Below are positions 3,794 through 64,000 of a stretch of 64,000 bases of DNA, one piece after another. The notes beneath the pieces are model-generated. The model worked only from the letters and a program-made list of their open reading frames with translations, was not told the DNA's origin and did no database searches. Both the position numbers and the translations under genes were made by a program. The stretch's first letter is position 1, and every line of letters begins with the position of its first letter. This stretch comes from an archaeon (GTDB lineage Archaea > Micrarchaeota > Micrarchaeia > Anstonellales > Anstonellaceae): assembly GCA_020056635.1 (NCBI GenBank), contig JAGVHI010000024.1, positions 2,317 to 66,316 on the forward strand, read 5' to 3'.

Positions 3794-3845
3794 ACCTGGA
3801 AATGTCGCGTGCAGGTTTAAATTAGTTGTTTTGCAAGCGAATCTC

Positions 3846-4502
3846 ATGAAAAAAAGCGCAGGGCATATTCCGGGAACAAATGTGTTCCGCTGCAAGCATA
3901 CCGGAAAAAAGCATGTGGAGCTTGCGGCAGATGCAAGCCTGCCAACCAGGTTCGGAAATTTCAGGATATATGCATTCTGCAGCACGTATGACCATAAGGA
4001 GCACGTGGCGCTTGTGAAAGGGGATGTAAGAGGGAAATCAGGAGTGCCTGTGCGGGTGCACTCAGAATGCTTTACCGGGGATATCATGGCATCAAAACGG
4101 TGCGATTGCAGGGAGCAGCTTGAGAAAAGCCTGCACTATCTGGCAAAACAGAAATGCGGAGTGCTCGTTTATCTGCGCCAGGAGGGAAGGGGAATCGGGC
4201 TTATCAATAAGGTGAGGGCGTACAAGTTGCAGGAGCAGGGAGTGGACACGTATGAGGCGAACGAATTGCTCGGGTTCCCGTATGATGCGAGAGATTATAC
4301 TGTCGCAGCAAAAATTCTGGGGCTGCTAGGGGTTAAATCAATCAGGATACTCACCAACAATCCGCACAAGATTGAGGGTTTGAAAAGGCACGGAGTGAAA
4401 ATTGCAGGCAGGGTTGAGATAGAGACTAAGCCCAACAAGTACAATTCGAAATATTTAAGTGCGAAGCAGAGGAAAGGGAAGCACATGCTGCACGTGGCTT
4501 AG
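3846..4502 (+). CDS. ribA: GTP cyclohydrolase II
   Basis: VRVHSECFTGD...CDCREQL...YLRQEGRGIGL.NK..AY.LQ..G.DT..AN is the classic RibA zinc/active-site region. ATG at 3846. Confidence 0.85.
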   Translation: MKKSAGHIPGTNVFRCKHTGKKHVELAADASLPTRFGNFRIYAFCSTYDHKEHVALVKGDVRGKSGVPVRVHSECFTGDIMASKRCDCREQLEKSLHYLAKQKCGVLVYLRQEGRGIGLINKVRAYKLQEQGVDTYEANELLGFPYDARDYTVAAKILGLLGVKSIRILTNNPHKIEGLKRHGVKIAGRVEIETKPNKYNSKYLSAKQRKGKHMLHVA

Positions 4503-14544: not shown

Positions 14545-15111
14545 ATGGTGCCAAAACTAGAAAACGCCCAGTTTAGAATGCTCAGGCGCCCTTCTCATTC
14601 AGTTAGGGATACGTGCCGCCATGCATTAAGGCATCCGTGGCAGACGCTCAAGGACCTTGTATTGCTAGACAGGCAGTTTAGGCATGTTGAGAGGATTAGC
14701 GATACTGAAAAGGGGGTTTTCACCAATCTAGTGATAGCAAACATTGAAGCTGCATCAATTATGGGTGGCGATCCCAAGCTTAGGGCAGCGCTTGATTCCA
14801 AATTAGAGGAAATATGCGCAAACGAATCGCAATTGAGGAGCGAGTACGCGAAAATGAATAAGCACTACAAGGCAAGCGTTTGGACTGTTGCAATCACTTG
14901 CGCGATTGGGTTGGCGAATCTCGCGCTAAGCTACTTCGAAGTTGCATTGCCGCCCGTAGTTCGGGCCATAGCCTCGTACCTTAGCCTCCCGCCCATAGCG
15001 GCGGTTGCATTGCTCCTGCGCACGCACATAAAGCGCAAGCACGTGAAGGAAACCCTCTTTGAAATCGAGGTGACAAAAGAATTCGCAAGGGAGATGCAGA
15101 GTGGGGAATAG
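14545..15111 (+). CDS. Hypothetical membrane protein
   Basis: 188 aa with C-terminal TM helices. Flanked by an AT-rich divergent intergenic region. Confidence 0.4.
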   Translation: MVPKLENAQFRMLRRPSHSVRDTCRHALRHPWQTLKDLVLLDRQFRHVERISDTEKGVFTNLVIANIEAASIMGGDPKLRAALDSKLEEICANESQLRSEYAKMNKHYKASVWTVAITCAIGLANLALSYFEVALPPVVRAIASYLSLPPIAAVALLLRTHIKRKHVKETLFEIEVTKEFAREMQSGE

Positions 15112-15130
15112 AACTTTTCCGTCGGCATGT

Positions 15131-15256
15131 TTCTTTTTGGGGGTGAGCCCTCAGCCCCTTTGGAGAGGGAGTTACGGAAGAGCGAGAAGTTTTCCGTCAA
15201 ATTCTTTTCTTTTGGGGTGAAACCCTCAGCCCTTTTCTTTTCCCAAAAGAAAAGGG
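15131..15256 (-). repeat. tRNA-associated structured element, copy E5 (3' trailer of tRNA-Pro)
   Basis: On the minus strand, hairpin CCCTTTTCTTTT-GGG-AAAAGAAAAGGG is followed by purine tract AAAAGAAAAGAA. Two related hairpins follow, GGGCTGAGGGTTTCACCCC and GGGGCTGAGGGCTCACCCCC. The element begins 8 nt after the tRNA-Pro discriminator. Confidence 0.6.
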
Positions 15257-15264
15257 ATATGGGA

Positions 15265-18091: not shown

Positions 18092-18320
18092 CCCGCCATA
18101 GCTCAACCTGGCTAGAGCGCCTGGCTGTAGTCTGCCAAATCGGCCTTATGCGATTGCGCATGTGGTCATCAGGAAGTTGTGTGTTCAATAGCCCTTTTCT
18201 CTCTCCGAGAGAAAAGCCCTCGTGGAAAAGAGAAACCATTTGGCGAAAAATATCCGCTTCGCGCGGTTTTTTCGCGCTGATAAAAGTCTCTTTTCGGCTG
18301 AACCAATCACACTGGCGGGA
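18092..18320 (+). tRNA. tRNA-Tyr (anticodon GUA) with two introns (229-nt gene)
   Basis: Acceptor CCCGCCA/TGGCGGG with the archaeal C1:G72 pair and discriminator A. D arm GCTC-AACCTGGCTA-GAGC. Anticodon stem CCTGG/TCAGG, loop CTGTAG|intron 18131-18167|A. T stem GTGTG/CACAC, with the T loop TTCA|~18188-18304|AAT interrupted. Confidence 0.8.
18188..18304 (+). repeat. tRNA-associated structured element, copy E1 (T-loop intron of tRNA-Tyr)
   Basis: Modules: CCCTTTTCTCTCTCCGAGAGAAAAG hairpin, GGAAAAGAGAAACC purine tract, GCGAAAAATATCCGCTTCGCGCGGTTTTTTCGC hairpin. The junction is ambiguous by 1-2 nt because of flanking A residues. Confidence 0.7.
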
Positions 18321-18357
18321 TTTTTTAAACCTACAACAGCATATGGAAGAGCCACTT

Positions 18358-18511
18358 GCCTCGGTAATGTAGTGGTCTAGCATTCCGGCCTGTCGCAAGG
18401 CCCCTTTTCTTTCTTAAAAAGAAAGAAAATGCCCCTGGGTTCAAAAGAAAGAAACGGATCCAGCAACCTTGCAGAAAGTCGGCAACCCGGGTTCGAATCC
18501 CGGCCGAGGCG
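18358..18511 (+). tRNA. tRNA-Asp (anticodon GUC) with 81-nt canonical-position intron
   Basis: Acceptor GCCTCGG/CCGAGGC, discriminator G. Anticodon stem CCGGC/GTCGG, loop CTGTCG|intron 18396-18476|A. T arm CCGGG-TTCGAAT-CCCGG. Intron ends pair as GCAAGG/CCTTGC. Confidence 0.85.
18396..18476 (+). repeat. tRNA-associated structured element, copy E4 (short form, tRNA-Asp intron)
   Basis: CCCCTTTTCTTTCTT-AAAAAGAAAGAAAATG hairpin plus AAAAGAAAGAAAC purine tract. The third hairpin module is absent. Confidence 0.6.
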
Positions 18512-18524
18512 CTCCTTTTTCGTT

Positions 18525-35538: not shown

Positions 35539-35566
35539 AGGAAGCCCAGCGCATTGCCAGGGAATT

Positions 35567-36028
35567 TTACTTTGAGCCGCTGGGCCCGTCCGCCAGAACC
35601 TTAGCATTCGCGGCCCAGCCGAAATCTTCCCTAGCAAGCGCCTCATTCAACGCCCAGAGGACATTATATGGGCTTGCCCTTGCATCCTCAACAGGCACAG
35701 GCTTCCACCCATTTTTCTTGCCGTCTTCCTCAAGCGCAAATTCCCATTTCCCTTCCTGGGTGCGCATCAGGATTTCGTGCGTTTCGTACATCTGCTCTTC
35801 AACAACGCTCAATCCAGGCCAGCCCCCGGCCGCAGTAACTTCACCGACTTGCACTCGCCTGATTACTGCAGGCTTTCCGTCCCCGCTGGCGCCTATTGCG
35901 GCGCTAGTTGGGCGTATGATTAGGCTCCTGCGAAGCGGCCCAAGGTCAGGTTTCGTTATCCTTGTTCCGGCCCCAGTAAGGGCTTTTGCAGTTGTAACCA
36001 TCACATCAGTAGGACTTGGGCCTCCCAT
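35567..36028 (-). CDS. Hypothetical protein
   Basis: 153-aa ATG ORF with ordinary composition. No motif recognised. Confidence 0.4.
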   Translation of the reverse strand: MGGPSPTDVMVTTAKALTGAGTRITKPDLGPLRRSLIIRPTSAAIGASGDGKPAVIRRVQVGEVTAAGGWPGLSVVEEQMYETHEILMRTQEGKWEFALEEDGKKNGWKPVPVEDARASPYNVLWALNEALAREDFGWAANAKVLADGPSGSK

Positions 36029-36158
36029 AAAATCACTTCGTTGTTCTGGGAATTGGTGCTAATAAAGAGTTGTCACGAAAATAAGCCCTAAGCCCCGGAG
36101 CGATATCGACATCCTTTTTATCCCCGCGCCCGCAAACTAAACTGCCTGCCCCTGTAGC

Positions 36159-36307
36159 AGGGCCTTTCTTTTCCTCCGGAAAAGAAACCCCCGAGAAAGA
36201 AAAGAACCATGACCGCGAAAAATATCCGCTTTTCGAGCAGGTTTTTTCGCCCAAGAAAATCGCCATGTCATTAGCTTTTTTATCTCTCGTCTCGAAATCA
36301 GAGTTAT
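36159..36307 (+). repeat. tRNA-associated structured element, copy E2 (flanked by duplicated tRNA-Thr 5' end)
   Basis: GGCCTTTCTTTTCCTCCGGAAAAGAAAC hairpin, GAGAAAGAAAAGAACC tract, GCGAAAAATATCCG...GGTTTTTTCGC hairpin. Its 3' part TTATCTC..CAGAGTT is shared with copy E3. Bounded by TGCCCCTGTAGC on both sides. Confidence 0.65.
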
Positions 36308-36403
36308 GCCCCTGTAGCTCAGCAGCAGAGCGCCTGTCTTGTAAGAGCATAACGCCCAATTCAGGAAAACAGGAGGTCGCGAGTGCAATCCTCGCCGGGG
36401 GCT
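36308..36403 (+). tRNA. tRNA-Thr (anticodon UGU) with 24-nt canonical intron
   Basis: Acceptor GCCCCTG/CGGGGGC. D arm GCTC-AGCAGCA-GAGC. Anticodon stem CCTGT/ACAGG, loop CTTGTA|intron 36344-36367|A. T arm GCGAG-TGCAATC-CTCGC. The D and T loops are atypical. Confidence 0.8.
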
Positions 36404-36466: not shown

Positions 36467-36619
36467 ATGGGAAAATTTGCGGAAGCTGACGCGGAAATCG
36501 CAAAAATCTTCATTTGCAAGAAGTGCAAGGGGCGGAACAAGGCAGGCGTGGCGCACTGCAGAAGGTGCGGCTACAAGGCGCTGCGGCCCAAGAGAAGGGA
36601 AATCCGCGCAAAGAAGTGA
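36467..36619 (+). CDS. rpl40e: Ribosomal protein L40e (eL40)
   Basis: 50-aa ORF MGKFAEADAEIAKIFICKKCKGRNKAGVAHCRRCGYKALRPKRREIRAKK. 4-Cys ribbon and basic tail are typical of archaeal L40e. Too short for the supplied ORF track. Confidence 0.8.
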   Translation: MGKFAEADAEIAKIFICKKCKGRNKAGVAHCRRCGYKALRPKRREIRAKK

Positions 36620-47508: not shown

Positions 47509-49095
47509 ATGGGCTCGCCTATCTACGACATTTTGAACAAGGCATGGAAATCGACTGCGCGAGTTTTATTTGGGGACGAGCTTGGGGAACTGGAAGATTA
47601 TGAGGACTGGCTGCTTTCCGGAATGCGCAAGCTCCGGTTTGAGAAATCTGCTTTATCGGGCAAGGAGGTAAGCCTTGCAATGCCTGAATATACCCCTAAT
47701 GCCCGCTTTTTGAGCTTTGATGAGATGGATTTCGGCAAGAAATTCGAGCCGCTTGGAATAAACGAAGTGAAGGATATTGATTCTGTTCTCGAGGCAATTT
47801 CAGAGCGCGTTTATTATACCGGCAACATAGTGCTGGGAGAATCGAAATATGTGGAGCGGAGCAGCAACATAGTGGACAGCCATTTCGTTTACTGTTCGAA
47901 CGTTGTTTCGGATTCGAAGTATATCGCATATTCAAGGGAAGCAAGGCTTTGTGAATACTGCTTTGGGTTCTTTGTTGGGGGGGAGTGCAGCTACACCGTG
48001 AAGTGCTGGGGGGGCAAAATGAAAAGGTGCTTTGAGTGCTACCATTCTGAGAGCAATTCTGATTCCTACTATTGCTTGGGGATACAAAACTGCCGCGACT
48101 GCATGTTCTGCTTCGGGCTGCAGAATGGCTCTTATGCAATAGGGAATCTGGCGCTGCCAGCGGAGAGATACAAGGGCATAAAACAGAAGCTGCTGTCGGA
48201 ACTTGTAGAAAAATTGAAGAAGGAGAAGAGCATATTCTCCCTATTGGATATCGTTGAGCAGGCAAAGGAGCACGAGGAGAGCAGCCTGCACCTGCCCCTT
48301 CCGCCCCAAAAACAGTTCAAAAAAGAAGTAGTGGAGGGGGCTTTTTCCCGCACAAGCGGCATTTTGCTTGGGAAAAGCCTGAGTGGGATTGACAGTTATG
48401 CCGGTTTCCTGCAAAAGCACGTGCCAAAGAACGTGATACTGAAATCCCCTCTGAGCGGGAAGAGGGTTTTGGTGGCAGGCTTCCGCTCATATGTGTTGGA
48501 CATGTTTGGGGTTGAGGGGCGGACAGTGGATATGGAAGAGCTTTGGGAAATCGGAAAGACGCATGTCGGGGAAAAAGAAGCATTATCCCTGAAAATGGAT
48601 GAGGGATATTTGGCAAAAGCATTGTCTCCGGTTGCTTACATCGCATTTGATGTGGGATATGGGAACATATCAAACATTGCAGATGCGGCTGTTGCAATAA
48701 ACTGCCAGGATTGCTATAATGGGTCTGCATTCGTAAATGCCAAAAAATGCGCCTATTGCTACTGGCCCCGCGAGTCTGAGCATATCTTCGGCTCTTCTGT
48801 AACCTGGATGTCTGCATTTTGCATGAAATGCTATTATTCGAAGAGGCTTACGCGCGCTTTCGAGTGCGATGCATGCGACAGCTGCTCTGACATTTACTTT
48901 TCGCACAACTGCGAGAATGTGAGGGATTCGATGTTCTGCTTCAATGTGAAGAACCTGAACTATGCTATAGGGAATGCGGCGCTTGCACCAGACAAGTACA
49001 AGCAGGTAAAGGCTAAACTGCTTGAGCAGGTTGCAGGCGAGCTTGAGAAGAAGAAGGACCTGAAATGGGATATATTTAAACTCTCGGAGAAATAA
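47509..49095 (+). CDS. CxxC-rich, internally duplicated protein of unknown function (paralog 1)
   Basis: 528 aa. Each half starts with an AW+..+VLFG....G.L.DY..WL helix. A run of CxxC-bearing short repeats follows, ending in C.DCMFCF.(V/L).N..YAIGN. Confidence 0.6.
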   Translation: MGSPIYDILNKAWKSTARVLFGDELGELEDYEDWLLSGMRKLRFEKSALSGKEVSLAMPEYTPNARFLSFDEMDFGKKFEPLGINEVKDIDSVLEAISERVYYTGNIVLGESKYVERSSNIVDSHFVYCSNVVSDSKYIAYSREARLCEYCFGFFVGGECSYTVKCWGGKMKRCFECYHSESNSDSYYCLGIQNCRDCMFCFGLQNGSYAIGNLALPAERYKGIKQKLLSELVEKLKKEKSIFSLLDIVEQAKEHEESSLHLPLPPQKQFKKEVVEGAFSRTSGILLGKSLSGIDSYAGFLQKHVPKNVILKSPLSGKRVLVAGFRSYVLDMFGVEGRTVDMEELWEIGKTHVGEKEALSLKMDEGYLAKALSPVAYIAFDVGYGNISNIADAAVAINCQDCYNGSAFVNAKKCAYCYWPRESEHIFGSSVTWMSAFCMKCYYSKRLTRAFECDACDSCSDIYFSHNCENVRDSMFCFNVKNLNYAIGNAALAPDKYKQVKAKLLEQVAGELEKKKDLKWDIFKLSEK

Positions 49096-60768: not shown

Positions 60769-60975
60769 TGGACTGGATGGGATTTCTGGGTGGCTAAAAC
60801 TCTGAGATAAGAAATATTTCTGGGTGAAAAAACCTGAGCGCGTGGCGCTCGGATATTTTTCATGCTCCCGGTTCTTTTCTTTCCCAGGGCTTTCTTTTCG
60901 CGGAGCGAAAAGAAAGGCCTGAACCCATGGCCTCTTCGTTGCGAACGAAGCGATCTACCGCTGATCTACCAGCCC
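60769..60975 (-). tRNA. tRNA-Ala (anticodon CGC) with 135-nt T-loop intron
   Basis: Acceptor GGGCTGG/CCAGTCC with G3:U70, discriminator A. D arm GATC-AGCGGTA-GATC. Anticodon arm CTTCG-TTCGCAA-CGAAG. T stem ATGGG/CCCAT with T loop TTCA|60785-60919|AAT. Confidence 0.8.
60785..60919 (-). repeat. tRNA-associated structured element, copy E3 (T-loop intron of tRNA-Ala)
   Basis: GGCCTTTCTTTTCGCTCCGCGAAAAGAAAGCC hairpin, GGGAAAGAAAAGAACC tract, and TGAAAAATATCCGAGCGCCACGCGCTCAGGTTTTTTCA hairpin. Confidence 0.7.
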
Positions 60976-61030: not shown

Positions 61031-62623
61031 ATGGGAGGAGGAGTGGAGGAAACCCTTTCTGTGCTCGATAAGAGATGGAGGGGCGCTTGCAGGGTGCTGT
61101 TTAAGGAGGAGGTTGGCGGGCTTGCGGAATTCTCTTCTTACCTCTCTGAACTTCCTGAAAAAGTAACGCACCATCAATCGAACATTTCTGGAAAAGATGT
61201 TTCGTGCGCACCAACCGCATATGCAGAAGGTTCAAAATTTATTAGTTTCAATGAGGTTGATTTCAACAGGAAGTTCGAGTCATTGAACATAAATGAAATT
61301 AAGGATATTGATTCGATAGTCGAAGCGTTGGGCGAAAGGGCGGTTTATTCAGGCAATATAGTTTTCGGGAATTCCGGGCACGTTGAGAAAAGCTCGAACA
61401 TAAATGACAGCTTTTACCTTTATGAAGTTGCAAGGTGCGGGAATTCCAAATACATTGCTTACGGCTCGATATTCAGGTATAATGAAGATTGTTTTGGAAG
61501 CAATGTTATAGGGGAATCGGCGTTCTGCATCCGCTGTAACAGGGGTCTTAGGCTCAAGCGCTGCTTCGAGCTCTGGATGGTGCAGAATAGCTCTGATTGC
61601 TATTACTCATCTGGTCTGGATGGATGCAGCGAATGCATGTTTTGCTTCAATGTGAAAAATAAGAGGCATGCCATCGGGAATCTGGCGCTTGAAGCGGCAG
61701 AATACGAAAAAATCAAGAAAAAACTCCTTTCAGAGATGGCAGAAGGCCTTAGGAAGGGGAAAAAACTGCCCTCGCTTCTTGACTTGGTAAAGATGAGTAG
61801 AAAGGAAGAAATACCTGCAATACGGACCAGTTCGAAAATCTTGGAGAAACAAGACAAGGACAGGATTGAAGATGCTTTCTCGCAAACCGCATCTATACTG
61901 TTCGGCAACAGACTTACCGGAGGGATAGATGCTTATTCTGATTGGCTGAGTGGGCATACGAGGCCCATTGGAGAAGGCATTTCTGCGGCAAGCGGCAAAA
62001 GGATACTGATAGCACCATTCGCAAACTTCTCCAAACTTCCAGCAGATAGGATAATGACTGAAGAGGCGTGGGAGCTTGGAGGGAGAACTTCTTTAACAGA
62101 ATCTGAAGTTGGGGAATTGAGCATGAAAAACGCCCACGAGACGATCGGAAAGCTAGCATATTTCAATGTGGATTTGTTTGAAGGAAAAAATTCGAATATG
62201 ATAGACTGCACATATGCTGTCGATTCAGCGGATTGCTACAAAAATTCTAACTCGCTGTATTCCAAATATTGCGGCTATTGCTTCTGGCCCAGGAACAGCC
62301 AATACTTGTTTGGGTGCGATTCCCCATTCGATTCTGCATTCTCAATGCATGCGTATTCCTGTACCCAGCTTACGAGATGCTTTGAGGCAGACTGCTGCGG
62401 CTACTGCTCGGACCTGTATTTCGGGCACAATTGCGAGAACGTGCACGAGAGCATGTTCTGCTTCAATGTGAAGAACAGGAGATACCATATAGGGAATGCC
62501 GAAGTGGAACAGGGGAAATACAAGGAGCTGAAGGCATCGCTTCTAGGGCAGATTCATCAGGAGTTGCAGAAGAAAAAAGGGCTGAAGTGGGACATTTACA
62601 ACATCTGGAGCGCGAAAAAATGA
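61031..62623 (+). CDS. CxxC-rich, internally duplicated protein of unknown function (paralog 2)
   Basis: 530 aa, colinear with 47509-49095. Shared blocks include ISFNEVDFNRKFE, INEIKDIDSIVEA, CSECMFCFNVKNKRHAIGNLAL and HNCENVHESMFCFNVKN. Confidence 0.6.
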   Translation: MGGGVEETLSVLDKRWRGACRVLFKEEVGGLAEFSSYLSELPEKVTHHQSNISGKDVSCAPTAYAEGSKFISFNEVDFNRKFESLNINEIKDIDSIVEALGERAVYSGNIVFGNSGHVEKSSNINDSFYLYEVARCGNSKYIAYGSIFRYNEDCFGSNVIGESAFCIRCNRGLRLKRCFELWMVQNSSDCYYSSGLDGCSECMFCFNVKNKRHAIGNLALEAAEYEKIKKKLLSEMAEGLRKGKKLPSLLDLVKMSRKEEIPAIRTSSKILEKQDKDRIEDAFSQTASILFGNRLTGGIDAYSDWLSGHTRPIGEGISAASGKRILIAPFANFSKLPADRIMTEEAWELGGRTSLTESEVGELSMKNAHETIGKLAYFNVDLFEGKNSNMIDCTYAVDSADCYKNSNSLYSKYCGYCFWPRNSQYLFGCDSPFDSAFSMHAYSCTQLTRCFEADCCGYCSDLYFGHNCENVHESMFCFNVKNRRYHIGNAEVEQGKYKELKASLLGQIHQELQKKKGLKWDIYNIWSAKK

Positions 62624-64000
62624 GCGAAGCGTATGAGTTGGTGAATAAAGCCTGGAAAAACACTTGCAGGGTTCTTCTGGGAGAGGAAGTTGGCGAGCTT
62701 AAAGATTACGAGAGTTACCTGAAGGAAAATGTCGACCAGATGCTGGTCGGGAAATCTGCGGTTTCAGGCAAGCCACTTTTTCTTTCGAGCACAGAATATG
62801 CAAAGGGATGCAAGTTCGTCTCAATGGAGGAGGTCGGGCAAGGCCAGAAGGCCGCTGCCATTGACATCAATTCAATTAAGGACATTGACAGCATCGTTTC
62901 CGCGCTCAGGGAGCAGTTCTACTACTGCGGGAACGGCATACTCGGCAATTCGAATTTTGTGGAAAACTCGGACAGCTGCGTGAATGTGCAGTATATTTAT
63001 GCCAGCCGCGACCTGCATGACATGAAATATGCGGCTTATTGCTCTGACACGAGCCTGAGCGAGCATATTTTCGGCTCGCAGGTGATACAGGGAAGCTTCC
63101 TGATAAAATGCCTGCGCGCGCTAAAAACAACAAGATGCTTTGAGGTATTCAGGACGCATTATAGCTCCGGGTGCTACTTCACCGGAAATTTGGAGGGCTG
63201 CACTGACTGCATGTTCTCCTTCAACCTTAGGAACAAGGTAAATGTGATTGGGAACCTGCAGCTGACAAAGGAGGAATACCAGAAAAGAAAGAGCGAACTG
63301 ATTTCGCAAATGAAGGAGGAGCTTAGGGAGAAAAGAAGGCTGGCTGGCATAATTGACATCATTGTAGATGTTCCGAAAGGCGCGGTAAAGGGTGCAGTGA
63401 AGAAAAAGCACGTATTTTCTTCGCAGGAGAAAAATGCATTAGATAAGCTTGAGACTGGATTTGGACGAACTTCGCAAGTGCTGTTTGAAAAAGAACTTTC
63501 AGGAATGCAAGAATATGGAGCATGGCTTGAGAGGCATGTGAGCAGCATACCTGTTGCATTTTCAACAATAAGCGGTGAAGAAGTGTTTGTCGGGGGGTGG
63601 GGGTTTCTCAAGAGGATAAAGGATAATACCTGCACGCTTGAGGAATCGCTTGCGCTTGGGAAGAAATCCCTTTCAGAGAAGGAGGCTGCTTCGTTATCGC
63701 TAAAGAATGCTTCAAGAACGCTGGATTCGATAAAATGCGTGAGCGGGGAGGCTGCGATTGGCAATAACATAGGGATAGTGATGTGCAATTCCTCAACAGA
63801 TGCAGAATACTGCTTTCGGGGAACAAATTGCACATACAGCCGGTACTGTGCTTATTGCCTATGGCCCAAGCAATCGCAGCACCTGTATGGGTGCTCACGG
63901 GCATTCGATTGCAGCTTCTGCATCCATTGCTACGATTCGGAAAAGCTCACGCGGTGCTTTGAGGTGAGCAACTCGAACTCATGTGCCGACTGCTACTTCT
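62620..64000 (+). CDS. CxxC-rich protein of unknown function (paralog 3, 3'-truncated by window end)
   Basis: My own translation from ATG 62620 (ATGA overlap with the paralog 2 stop) stays open to base 64000. MSEAYELVNKAWKNTCRVLLGEEVGELKDYESYL..., CTDCMFSFNLRNKVNVIGNLQL. Not in the supplied ORF track because no stop is reached. Confidence 0.6.
   Translation, partial: MSEAYELVNKAWKNTCRVLLGEEVGELKDYESYLKENVDQMLVGKSAVSGKPLFLSSTEYAKGCKFVSMEEVGQGQKAAAIDINSIKDIDSIVSALREQFYYCGNGILGNSNFVENSDSCVNVQYIYASRDLHDMKYAAYCSDTSLSEHIFGSQVIQGSFLIKCLRALKTTRCFEVFRTHYSSGCYFTGNLEGCTDCMFSFNLRNKVNVIGNLQLTKEEYQKRKSELISQMKEELREKRRLAGIIDIIVDVPKGAVKGAVKKKHVFSSQEKNALDKLETGFGRTSQVLFEKELSGMQEYGAWLERHVSSIPVAFSTISGEEVFVGGWGFLKRIKDNTCTLEESLALGKKSLSEKEAASLSLKNASRTLDSIKCVSGEAAIGNNIGIVMCNSSTDAEYCFRGTNCTYSRYCAYCLWPKQSQHLYGCSRAFDCSFCIHCYDSEKLTRCFEVSNSNSCADCYF

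What the first reader, a model, noticed from the sequence alone, without database searches (positions are those of the whole stretch)
36147..36318. 12-bp duplication of the tRNA-Thr 5' end brackets a 149-nt element copy
TGCCCCTGTAGC occurs at 36147-36158 and again at 36307-36318. The second copy is the true start of a complete tRNA-Thr (GCCCCTG-TA-GC...). The 149 nt in between are element copy E2. Its 5' modules and 3' end (TTATCTC...CAGAGTT) are homologous to the tRNA-Ala T-loop intron. Two readings are possible. The first is a target-site duplication left by insertion of a mobile element into the tRNA gene. The second is that the gene starts at 36148 and carries a D-arm intron whose excision would regenerate the same mature tRNA. 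Either reading is direct evidence that this element family moves, or has moved, into tRNA genes.
Basis: seen in the sequence. Interest (0 to 1): 0.75.

Follow-up and report, generated by a model that had tools for sequence, protein, structure and literature searches.

The report
Displaced tRNA-Thr start beside intron-type element
In this tiny archaeon (Micrarchaeota), a spare copy of the promoter and first 11 bases of a threonine tRNA gene sits upstream of the real gene, fused to a truncated copy of an element that normally lives inside tRNA genes as an intron; it is most likely a recombination scar, not a simple insertion footprint or a working intron.

Summary
The 12-mer TGCCCCTGTAGC is exact at 36147-36158 and 36307-36318. 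The second copy starts a valid tRNA-Thr(UGU), 36308-36403, with a 24-nt canonical intron.

Only 36159-~36261 of the interval belongs to the element family. A covariance model built without it scores 73 bits. The remaining ~45 nt (36262-36306) match the tRNA-Thr promoter and leader of a relative (L084, 21/25 identical). The sequence upstream of the first copy resembles that promoter too. The duplication is therefore about 58 nt (promoter, leader, tRNA nt 1-11), diverged except for the last 12 nt. It is not a 12-bp target-site duplication.

The first copy ends exactly where family members meet their 5' exon. A relaxed bulge-helix-bulge (BHB) splice motif can be drawn only at 11/12, but it is weak. 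It is also unnecessary, because a complete gene with its own promoter follows.

Best reading: a displaced 5' gene fragment carrying the 5' part of a former D-arm intron, left by recombination at a rearrangement-prone tRNA-Thr locus. The gene is inverted relative to relatives, synteny breaks at its 3' end, and similar exon-fragment repeats occur in seven related loci. The closest precedent is the Caldiarchaeum tRNA-Thr fragment.

The parts
36102..36146 (+). Promoter-like region A plus leader: GATATC 36102-07, TATA-like TTTTTAT 36115-21, then 26 nt to G36148.
   Evidence: Sequence. Similar to the L084 tRNA-Thr promoter (p=0.0045) and to region B (p=0.008). Its spacing to the tRNA start matches the other tRNA genes of the window, 26-31 nt.
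36147..36158 (+). Copy A of the 12-mer: leader T plus tRNA-Thr nt 1-11. This is the displaced 5' exon fragment.
   Evidence: Exact match. It ends where the covariance-model-defined element begins.
36159..36261 (+). Element copy E2, modules 1-3 only. Pyrimidine/purine hairpin 36165-74 with 36178-87, closed by GGG 36160-62 / CCC 36190-92. Second purine run 36193-36206. A-run/U-run hairpin 36215-36250. The family's 3' tail is missing.
   Evidence: Model R1, built without E2, scores 73.3 bits, E~1e-13. Alignments A2 and A3. Fold energy z=-2.9.
36262..36306 (+). Promoter-like region B plus leader of the intact gene: ATGTCATTAGC 36265-75, TATA-like TTTTTTAT 36276-83, then 24 nt to G36308.
   Evidence: 21/25 identity to the L084 tRNA-Thr promoter, local-alignment shuffle p~0.002. 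The blastn match to L084 starts at 36304.
36307..36318 (+). Copy B of the 12-mer: leader T plus nt 1-11 of the functional tRNA-Thr.
36308..36403 (+). tRNA-Thr(UGU) gene. Exon 1 is 36308-36343, the canonical 24-nt intron is 36344-36367, and exon 2 is 36368-36403.
   Evidence: Rfam RF00005 at 51.4 bits. ARAGORN calls tRNA-Thr(tgt) on the spliced sequence.
60786..60920 (-). Full-length family member: 135-nt T-loop intron (56/57) of tRNA-Ala(CGC). BHB central helix H is GGGU/ACCC and inner helix h' is GGC/GCC.
   Evidence: ARAGORN calls tRNA-Ala after removal. Model R1 scores 114 bits.
18189..18305 (+). Full-length family member: 117-nt T-loop intron (58/59) of tRNA-Tyr(GUA). BHB central helix H is GUUC/GAAC and inner helix h' is AGCC/GGCU.
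   Evidence: 107 bits.
18396..18476 (+). Short variant (module 1 only): 81-nt canonical intron of tRNA-Asp(GUC).
   Evidence: (strict hBHBh').

Best explanation
The upstream 12-mer is the end of a displaced, probably dead, 5' fragment of a tRNA-Thr(UGU) gene. The fragment consists of its own TATA-like box, a leader, and tRNA nt 1-11.

The fragment is fused to the first ~103 nt of a Micrarchaeota tRNA-intron element. The fusion point is in the register where this family normally meets its 5' exon. The fragment therefore looks like the front of a tRNA-Thr gene copy that carried this element as a D-arm (11/12) intron.

The element is cut off before its 3' tail by a second tRNA-Thr promoter, which is followed by the complete gene.

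Inferred history. A DNA-level recombination at the 5' end of tRNA-Thr put an intron-free promoter and 5' end in front of the gene body and pushed the old front upstream. Possible mechanisms are partial gene duplication or replacement, homology-anchored illegitimate recombination, or integrase-type exchange between an intron-bearing and an intron-free copy.

Inferred present function. The mature tRNA comes from the downstream copy. It is transcribed from promoter B and/or by read-through from promoter A, and RNase P cuts at 36307/36308. Copy A and E2 are a relic, or at most part of a long leader.
For: Shown by tool results:
- Exact repeat and a valid downstream tRNA.
- E2 is a family member only over 36160-~36261.
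- 36262-36306 is homologous to the L084 tRNA-Thr promoter, and the region upstream of copy A also resembles it. Only the Thr promoters (A, B, L084, L160) share the TTTTTATC box. Other tRNA promoters here use TTTAAA.
- The junction GC|A-GGGCC-pyrimidine run matches the 5' splice junctions of the Ala, Tyr, Glu and Ile intron copies (|N-(G/A)GCC-pyrimidine run), give or take one G.
- The locus is rearranged. The tRNA is inverted relative to L084, L085 and about 20 other Micrarchaeota loci. Window 35548-36303 has no counterpart in L084. Homology with the closest relative, L083, begins at 36396, inside the tRNA 3' end.
- The same kind of scar recurs in relatives. L160 has a 17-nt 5'-end repeat around a 38-nt insert, with the promoter only upstream of the fragment. 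L097, L098, L109, L115, L123 and L161 carry extra copies of 3' or anticodon-arm pieces.

From the literature: Sugahara et al. 2012 (PMC3293823) describe a tRNA-Thr 5' fragment upstream of an intact tRNA-Thr gene and explain intron gain by attP/attB recombination.

Inference: 12/12 identity next to ~45% diverged promoters is what two formerly functional exon copies would show.
Against: - No integrase or other recombinase lies in the neighbouring genes (Pfam and PHROGs).
- No relative with a clean pre-event or post-event allele was found. L084 is inverted and L083 has lost the gene.
- The promoter-A homology is only moderately significant. Unrelated tRNA promoters reach p 0.02-0.05 in the same test.
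- The present 3' end happens to satisfy a relaxed BHB. The chance of that at a repeat end is ~0.9%. A pure relic model must treat this as coincidence.
- The TATA-B region is also complementary to E2's second purine run, as the family tail is in full-length copies. The element/promoter boundary is therefore not sharp.
Confidence: 0.5

Rival explanations
1. Working D-arm intron. The gene starts at 36148, is transcribed from promoter A, and the splicing endonuclease removes 36159-36318 at a relaxed BHB. This regenerates the same tRNA and releases E2 as an intron RNA.
For: Of the 13 equivalent registers, only 11/12 gives a 4-bp central helix (UGUA 36153-56 with UGUA 36313-16) flanked by 3-nt bulges, plus a 3-bp inner helix (GGG 36160-62 with CCC 36310-12). 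This is the same grade as the proven Ala and Tyr T-loop introns. The chance for a repeat end is ~0.9%. Promoter-like box A sits at the right distance. Micrarchaeota carry the epsilon2 endonuclease, which cuts relaxed BHBs at non-canonical sites (PMC3239211).
Against: The central helix has two tandem G.U pairs and competes with acceptor pairs 6-67 and 7-66. The 'intron' holds a promoter homolog and a full 5' end, so RNase P processing of the normal cloverleaf suffices and splicing is not needed. BHB constraints explain at most 7-9 of the 12 identical bases. None of the relatives' tRNA-Thr genes in hand has an 11/12 intron. Most analogous exon repeats in relatives have no BHB register.
Confidence: 0.17
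2. Insertion footprint. A discrete ~148-nt mobile cassette (E2 plus an outward-facing promoter) inserted after tRNA nt 11. The 12-bp repeat is either a target-site duplication or an att-core duplication from integrase-type recombination of a miniature element.
For: The 12-bp direct repeats are exact and immediately flank the interval. L084 has a tRNA-Thr without the upstream element. In relatives, small hairpin inserts at tRNA-Thr are bracketed by 10-22-nt exon repeats that differ with the insertion site (L123, L160, L161). Integrative elements are known to carry tRNA-end copies with promoters (PMC3293823).
Against: Similarity continues upstream of both repeats. The four intron copies of the same family have no flanking repeats. 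E2 has no terminal inverted repeats and lacks the family's own 3' tail. No transposase or integrase is nearby. L084 is not a clean empty site, because the gene is inverted there.
Confidence: 0.2
3. Chance repeat with no biological meaning.
For: 12-mers repeated within 300 nt occur about twice per shuffled window.
Against: The repeat coincides to the base with the tRNA 5' end on one side and with the element's 5' end on the other. It includes the -1 T, which L084 also has. It is accompanied by upstream similarity.
Confidence: 0.03

Closest known systems
tRNA-Thr-F fragment and tRNA-end direct repeats at integration borders (Caldiarchaeum subterraneum, Sugahara et al. 2012, PMC3293823; SSV1/pNOB8-type att duplications)
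   Same: A 5' fragment of a tRNA-Thr gene lies upstream of the intact gene in direct orientation and brackets inserted DNA. An intron differs between the two copies. The locus varies between close relatives.
   Different: Here the interval is only 148 nt and has no recombinase gene. The exact repeat is 12 nt, next to a diverged promoter. The DNA attached to the fragment is itself a member of a tRNA-intron family.
Non-canonical BHB tRNA introns and intron transposition (Thermoproteales, as I recall Fujishima et al. 2010, which I did not read here; ARMAN-2 with the epsilon2 endonuclease, PMC3239211)
   Same: E2 belongs to a family whose other members are proven-by-sequence introns at 37/38, 56/57 and 58/59 in different tRNAs. 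That is the pattern interpreted as intron transposition. An HBh'-type motif can be drawn at 11/12.
   Different: E2 lies outside the functional gene, lacks the family 3' tail, and is followed by a promoter. Its excision is not required.
Target-site duplications of MITE-like or transposable elements
   Same: Short exact direct repeats flank a small non-coding element.
   Different: There are no inverted termini. Other copies have no duplications. The similarity extends beyond the repeat.
Split or permuted tRNA genes (Nanoarchaeum, Caldivirga; PMC3218864, abstract only)
   Same: A tRNA piece has its own promoter-like box.
   Different: The piece is only 11 nt. There is no complementary leader/trailer for trans-splicing, and an intact gene is present.

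Membership tests
   73.3 bits, E~1e-13, at 36160-36282. Confident to ~36261; the tail is not matched.
Archaeal BHB tRNA intron | Removal restores a canonical tRNA. | tested here: met
   Removing 36159-36318 gives the same tRNA-Thr. This is trivial because of the repeat.
Archaeal BHB tRNA intron | [quoted passage not shown] | tested here: inconclusive
   H is UGUA/UGUA (4 bp, two of them G.U), h' is 3 bp, and outer helix h is 0 bp. This works at register 11/12 only. It is the same grade as the Ala and Tyr introns but thermodynamically weak.
Archaeal BHB tRNA intron | The intron interrupts the only functional copy, so splicing is required. | tested here: not met
   A complete 5' end with a promoter homolog lies inside the putative intron.
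Archaeal BHB tRNA intron | Cleavage by the splicing endonuclease and ligation in vivo. | not testable with these tools
   Needs RNA-seq or an in vitro assay.
Transposon-type target-site duplication | Direct repeats immediately flank the element. | tested here: met
   12/12 exact.
Transposon-type target-site duplication | Other copies of the family carry their own flanking duplications. | tested here: not met
   The Ala, Tyr, L029 and L071 copies have none.
Transposon-type target-site duplication | Similarity stops at the repeat, and the insert is unrelated to the target's flank. | tested here: not met
   The upstream regions are similar (p=0.008). The 3' 45 nt of the insert are homologous to a tRNA-Thr promoter.
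Integration (att) scar at a tRNA gene | Direct repeat of a tRNA end, with a synteny break at the tRNA. | tested here: met
   (L083 homology starts at 36396; the gene is inverted versus L084).
Integration (att) scar at a tRNA gene | Integrase gene or remnant within or next to the repeats. | tested here: not met
   No Pfam or PHROGs hit in the flanking ORFs. The unique ORF 35567-36028 has no homologs.

The most novel reading that the evidence does not exclude
The locus may be a caught-in-the-act intermediate of a lineage-wide, DNA-level process in Micrarchaeota. In this process, small structured elements would enter tRNA genes together with a duplicated piece of exon. Young insertions, such as this one, L160 and L123, would still show the exon repeat. 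Old ones would keep only what a BHB needs and become ordinary introns. The conserved pyrimidine/purine hairpin plus mirror-image purine run would be the functional core of the element; that arrangement could in principle form a three-stranded helix (triplex).
Probability: 0.15. Interest if true: 0.85.

Novelty: new variant of a known kind. Interest (0 to 1): 0.5.

Why it matters
How archaeal tRNA genes gain, lose and move their protein-spliced introns is unresolved. The main proposal, recombination at tRNA genes between intron-bearing and intron-free copies, rests largely on one Caldiarchaeum locus.

This window offers a second, independent snapshot in a different phylum. An intron-family element is still attached to a displaced 5' exon fragment at a splice-junction register, next to the repaired gene. 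It adds a new insertion site (11/12) for a family that is otherwise seen at 37/38, 56/57 and 58/59.

It also points to tRNA-Thr(UGU) as a recombination hotspot across Micrarchaeota. The intron versus relic question can be tested directly with small-RNA or circular-RNA sequencing.

Tried and rejected
- Exact-protein look-ups of window proteins (L40e, the unique ORF, GAPDH) found nothing.
- The genome-collection scan with the element core motif returned 79 chance bacterial hits. Only one real relative, MAG DeMMO2_7, was found.
- A stricter motif scan of the metagenome collection found nothing.
- L40e-anchored loci gave no relative closer than L083 and L084. L173-L175 were uninformative.
- Rfam has no family for E2, at either the gathering or the E-value threshold.
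- The plasmid collection has no match to 35540-36320.
- Pfam and PHROGs show no recombinase nearby.
- GC content shows no foreign-DNA signal.
- A search for tRNA-Thr genes with a real 11/12 intron in 94 loci found only this window, plus L160 (a 5' fragment) and L136 (which looks like two adjacent tRNA genes).
- The MFE of the whole precursor is not informative. It pairs copy A with the 3' end but does not form a true cloverleaf.
- I first read the entire tail as promoter only. Folding then showed that the TATA-B region can also pair with E2's second purine run, as the family tail does. The element/promoter boundary is therefore given as approximate.

Full report
**Observation**

TGCCCCTGTAGC occurs exactly twice in the window, at 36147-36158 and 36307-36318 on the + strand. 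Rfam finds a tRNA at 36308-36403 (51 bits). After removal of a 24-nt canonical intron (36344-36367), ARAGORN calls tRNA-Thr(tgt). Copy B is therefore leader T plus nt 1-11 of a real gene.

A 12-mer repeated within 300 nt is not unusual in itself. I found 9 distinct cases in the window against about 2 expected. What makes this one non-random is where it sits. Copy B starts one base before the tRNA. Copy A ends at the base where an independently defined element begins. Similarity also continues upstream of both copies.

**Context**

The window is archaeal, from the Micrarchaeota (DPANN group). The L40e gene at 36467-36619 has its nearest homologs in Micrarchaeota assemblies.

Several tRNA genes here carry large introns that share one element. 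These are tRNA-Ala(CGC) with a T-loop intron at 60786-60920 (-), tRNA-Tyr(GUA) with a T-loop intron at 18189-18305, and tRNA-Asp(GUC) with a short variant in its canonical intron at 18396-18476. Removing them yields valid tRNAs.

The only other genome found with the long form is MAG DeMMO2_7. There it sits in the 37/38 introns of tRNA-Glu(CUC) and tRNA-Ile(GAU). The family therefore occupies 37/38, 56/57 and 58/59 in five different tRNAs. It has no Rfam family.

**Anatomy of the interval**

A covariance model built from the four other long copies, without E2, hits 36160-36282 at 73 bits (E~1e-13). Posterior confidence is high only to about 36261, and the family's 3' tail is not matched.

E2 therefore contains three modules:
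- the pyrimidine/purine hairpin (36165-74 with 36178-87);
- the second purine run (36193-36206);
- the A-run/U-run hairpin (36215-36250).

From 36262 on, the best match is the promoter of the tRNA-Thr gene of relative L084, whose L40e is 90% identical. The two read ATGTCATTAGCTTTTTTATCTCTCG and ATATCACTAGCTTTTTTTATCCTCG, both ending in TTAT|GCCCCTG (shuffle p~0.002).

The sequence upstream of copy A (GATATC...TTTTTATCC.CGC..CC, 36102-36133) also resembles the L084 promoter (p=0.0045) and region B (p=0.008). Both copies have a TTTTT(T)AT box 24-26 nt upstream, the same spacing as the other tRNA genes in the window. The TTTTTATC box type is seen only at Thr promoters: A, B, L084 and L160.

The duplicated unit is therefore about 58 nt (promoter, leader, nt 1-11). 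It has diverged everywhere except the last 12 nt.

**The junction**

In the four bona fide introns, the 5' splice site is followed by one base, then (G/A)GCC, then the pyrimidine run. Copy A is followed by A, G, GGCC and the pyrimidine run. E2 is thus attached to tRNA nt 11 in the register of a 5' splice junction.

**BHB test**

I derived the rule from the proven introns. Exon positions -6 to -3 pair with intron positions -6 to -3, and each splice site lies in a 3-nt bulge. The rule reproduces Ala (GGGU/ACCC, h' 3 bp), Tyr (GUUC/GAAC, h' 4 bp) and Asp (strict motif).

For E2, only the register at the repeat end (11/12) works. UGUA 36153-56 pairs with UGUA 36313-16, and GGG 36160-62 pairs with CCC 36310-12. 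The chance for a repeat end is about 0.9%.

The helix has two G.U pairs and competes with the acceptor stem. Analogous repeats in relatives mostly have no such register.

**Comparative evidence**

In L084, L085 and about 20 other Micrarchaeota loci, tRNA-Thr(UGU) lies divergent from L40e. In the window it is co-directional, so it has been inverted.

Window 35548-36303 has no counterpart in L084. This stretch holds an ORF with no homologs, promoter A, the fragment and E2. Homology with the closest relative, L083 (L40e 98% identical), starts at 36396, inside the tRNA 3' end, and L083 keeps only 3'-end remnants.

Exon-fragment direct repeats recur at this gene in relatives:
- L160 has a 17-nt 5'-end repeat around a 38-nt insert, with the promoter only upstream of the fragment.
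- L123 has a 16-nt anticodon-arm repeat around a two-hairpin insert.
- L097, L098, L109, L115, L123 and L161 have one or two extra copies of the 3' end or 3' half.

No relative has a true 11/12 intron.

**Explanation**

The data fit a displaced 5' fragment of a tRNA-Thr gene copy that carried the element as a D-arm intron. The fragment was truncated when an intron-free promoter and 5' end were recombined in front of the gene body.

Two things are shown: the anatomy and the homologies. Two things are inferred: the order of events, and that RNase P at 36307/08 makes the mature 5' end.

Identical 12-mers next to diverged promoters are expected if both copies were once exons under selection, or if they came from different lineages.

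The closest precedent is Sugahara et al. 2012. They found a tRNA-Thr 5' fragment upstream of an intact gene and proposed intron gain by recombination between intron-bearing and intron-free att sequences.

The rivals cannot be excluded without RNA data or closer relatives. They are a working relaxed-BHB intron (0.17), a 148-nt cassette inserted with a 12-bp target or att duplication (0.20), and chance (0.03).

**Novelty**

tRNA-end fragments at recombination borders and transposed tRNA introns are both known. New here is their combination in one 260-nt locus in a DPANN archaeon, a previously unseen junction at nt 11/12, and an undescribed element family.

**Side observation**

In 12 of 20 module-1 instances across species, the second purine run matches the mirror image of the hairpin's purine arm better than its direct copy. 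In 4 instances the direct copy matches better. All seven distinct asymmetric run patterns are mirrored. In full-length copies this run also pairs with a pyrimidine run in the tail. This is a triplex-compatible arrangement that deserves its own study.

Noticed in passing
window 36165-36206; 60917-60870 (-); 18192-18240; 18401-18455; 15257-15190 (-); also L029, L071, L099, L107, L115: Module 1 of the element is a pyrimidine/purine hairpin followed by a second purine run. That run is the mirror image (the reverse, not the reverse complement) of the hairpin's purine arm, and it co-varies between copies: (3,5)->(5,3), (3,6)->(6,3), (2,5)->(5,2), (1,1,4)->(4,1..). The mirror match beats the direct match in 12 instances and loses in 4. 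The arrangement is compatible with a triplex. I found no report of it.
   Followed up: partly
window 60786-60920 (-), 18189-18305: In full-length copies, the second purine run base-pairs with a pyrimidine run in the 3' tail and encloses the A-run/U-run hairpin (fold z-scores -5.6 and -4.2). In E2 the same run can pair with the TATA-like box B, at 36275-36286.
   Followed up: partly
L160 (- strand, ~9866-9780); L123, L161, L097, L098, L109, L115 (- strand, within ~600 nt upstream of L40e): At tRNA-Thr(UGU) in many Micrarchaeota, 10-22-nt pieces of the exon (5' end, anticodon arm, 3' end or 3' half) are directly repeated around 40-150-nt hairpin-rich inserts. Some form tandem arrays of up to three 3' ends.
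   Followed up: partly
L161 and L123 downstream of tRNA-Thr; L083 ~3830-3910: By eye, the spacers of these arrays start with a mimic of the acceptor 5' strand (AGCCCCGC...), carry two hairpins (TTTTGNNCC-TGCG-GGNNCAAAA plus a second one), and end in the tRNA 3' end. They look like tRNA-like mini-units. In L083 such a unit stands where the tRNA-Thr gene should be.
   Followed up: no
window 18092-18321 and 18358-18512: tRNA-Tyr(GUA, two introns) and tRNA-Asp(GUC, 81-nt intron) are missed by ARAGORN and by Rfam at the gathering threshold. They are valid after splicing.
   Followed up: yes
window 35548-36403 versus L083 and L084: tRNA-Thr is inverted relative to L40e compared with about 20 relatives. 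Synteny with L083 breaks at 36396, inside the tRNA 3' end. The 144/153-aa ORF at 35567-36028 (-) has no homolog in 5.8 billion proteins.
   Followed up: partly
window 36321-36327 and 36385-36391: tRNA-Thr has a D-loop without the usual GG (AGCAGCA) and a T-loop UGCAAUC, with G where position 55 is normally U/pseudouridine. UGCRAUY T-loops also occur in the tRNA-Thr genes of L084, L096 and L115.
   Followed up: no
window 15110-15260 (-): The 3' trailer of tRNA-Pro carries one complete and one partial tandem copy of a second element type: hairpin, then GGG-loop-CCC, then a purine run. Similar units occur in L099, L150 and L155.
   Followed up: no
window 48096-48975 and 61630-63255: Five diverged copies of a 52-nt coding-like repeat (...TGCTTCAATGTGAAGAA...GGGAAT). 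These are probably paralogous genes or repeated domains.
   Followed up: no
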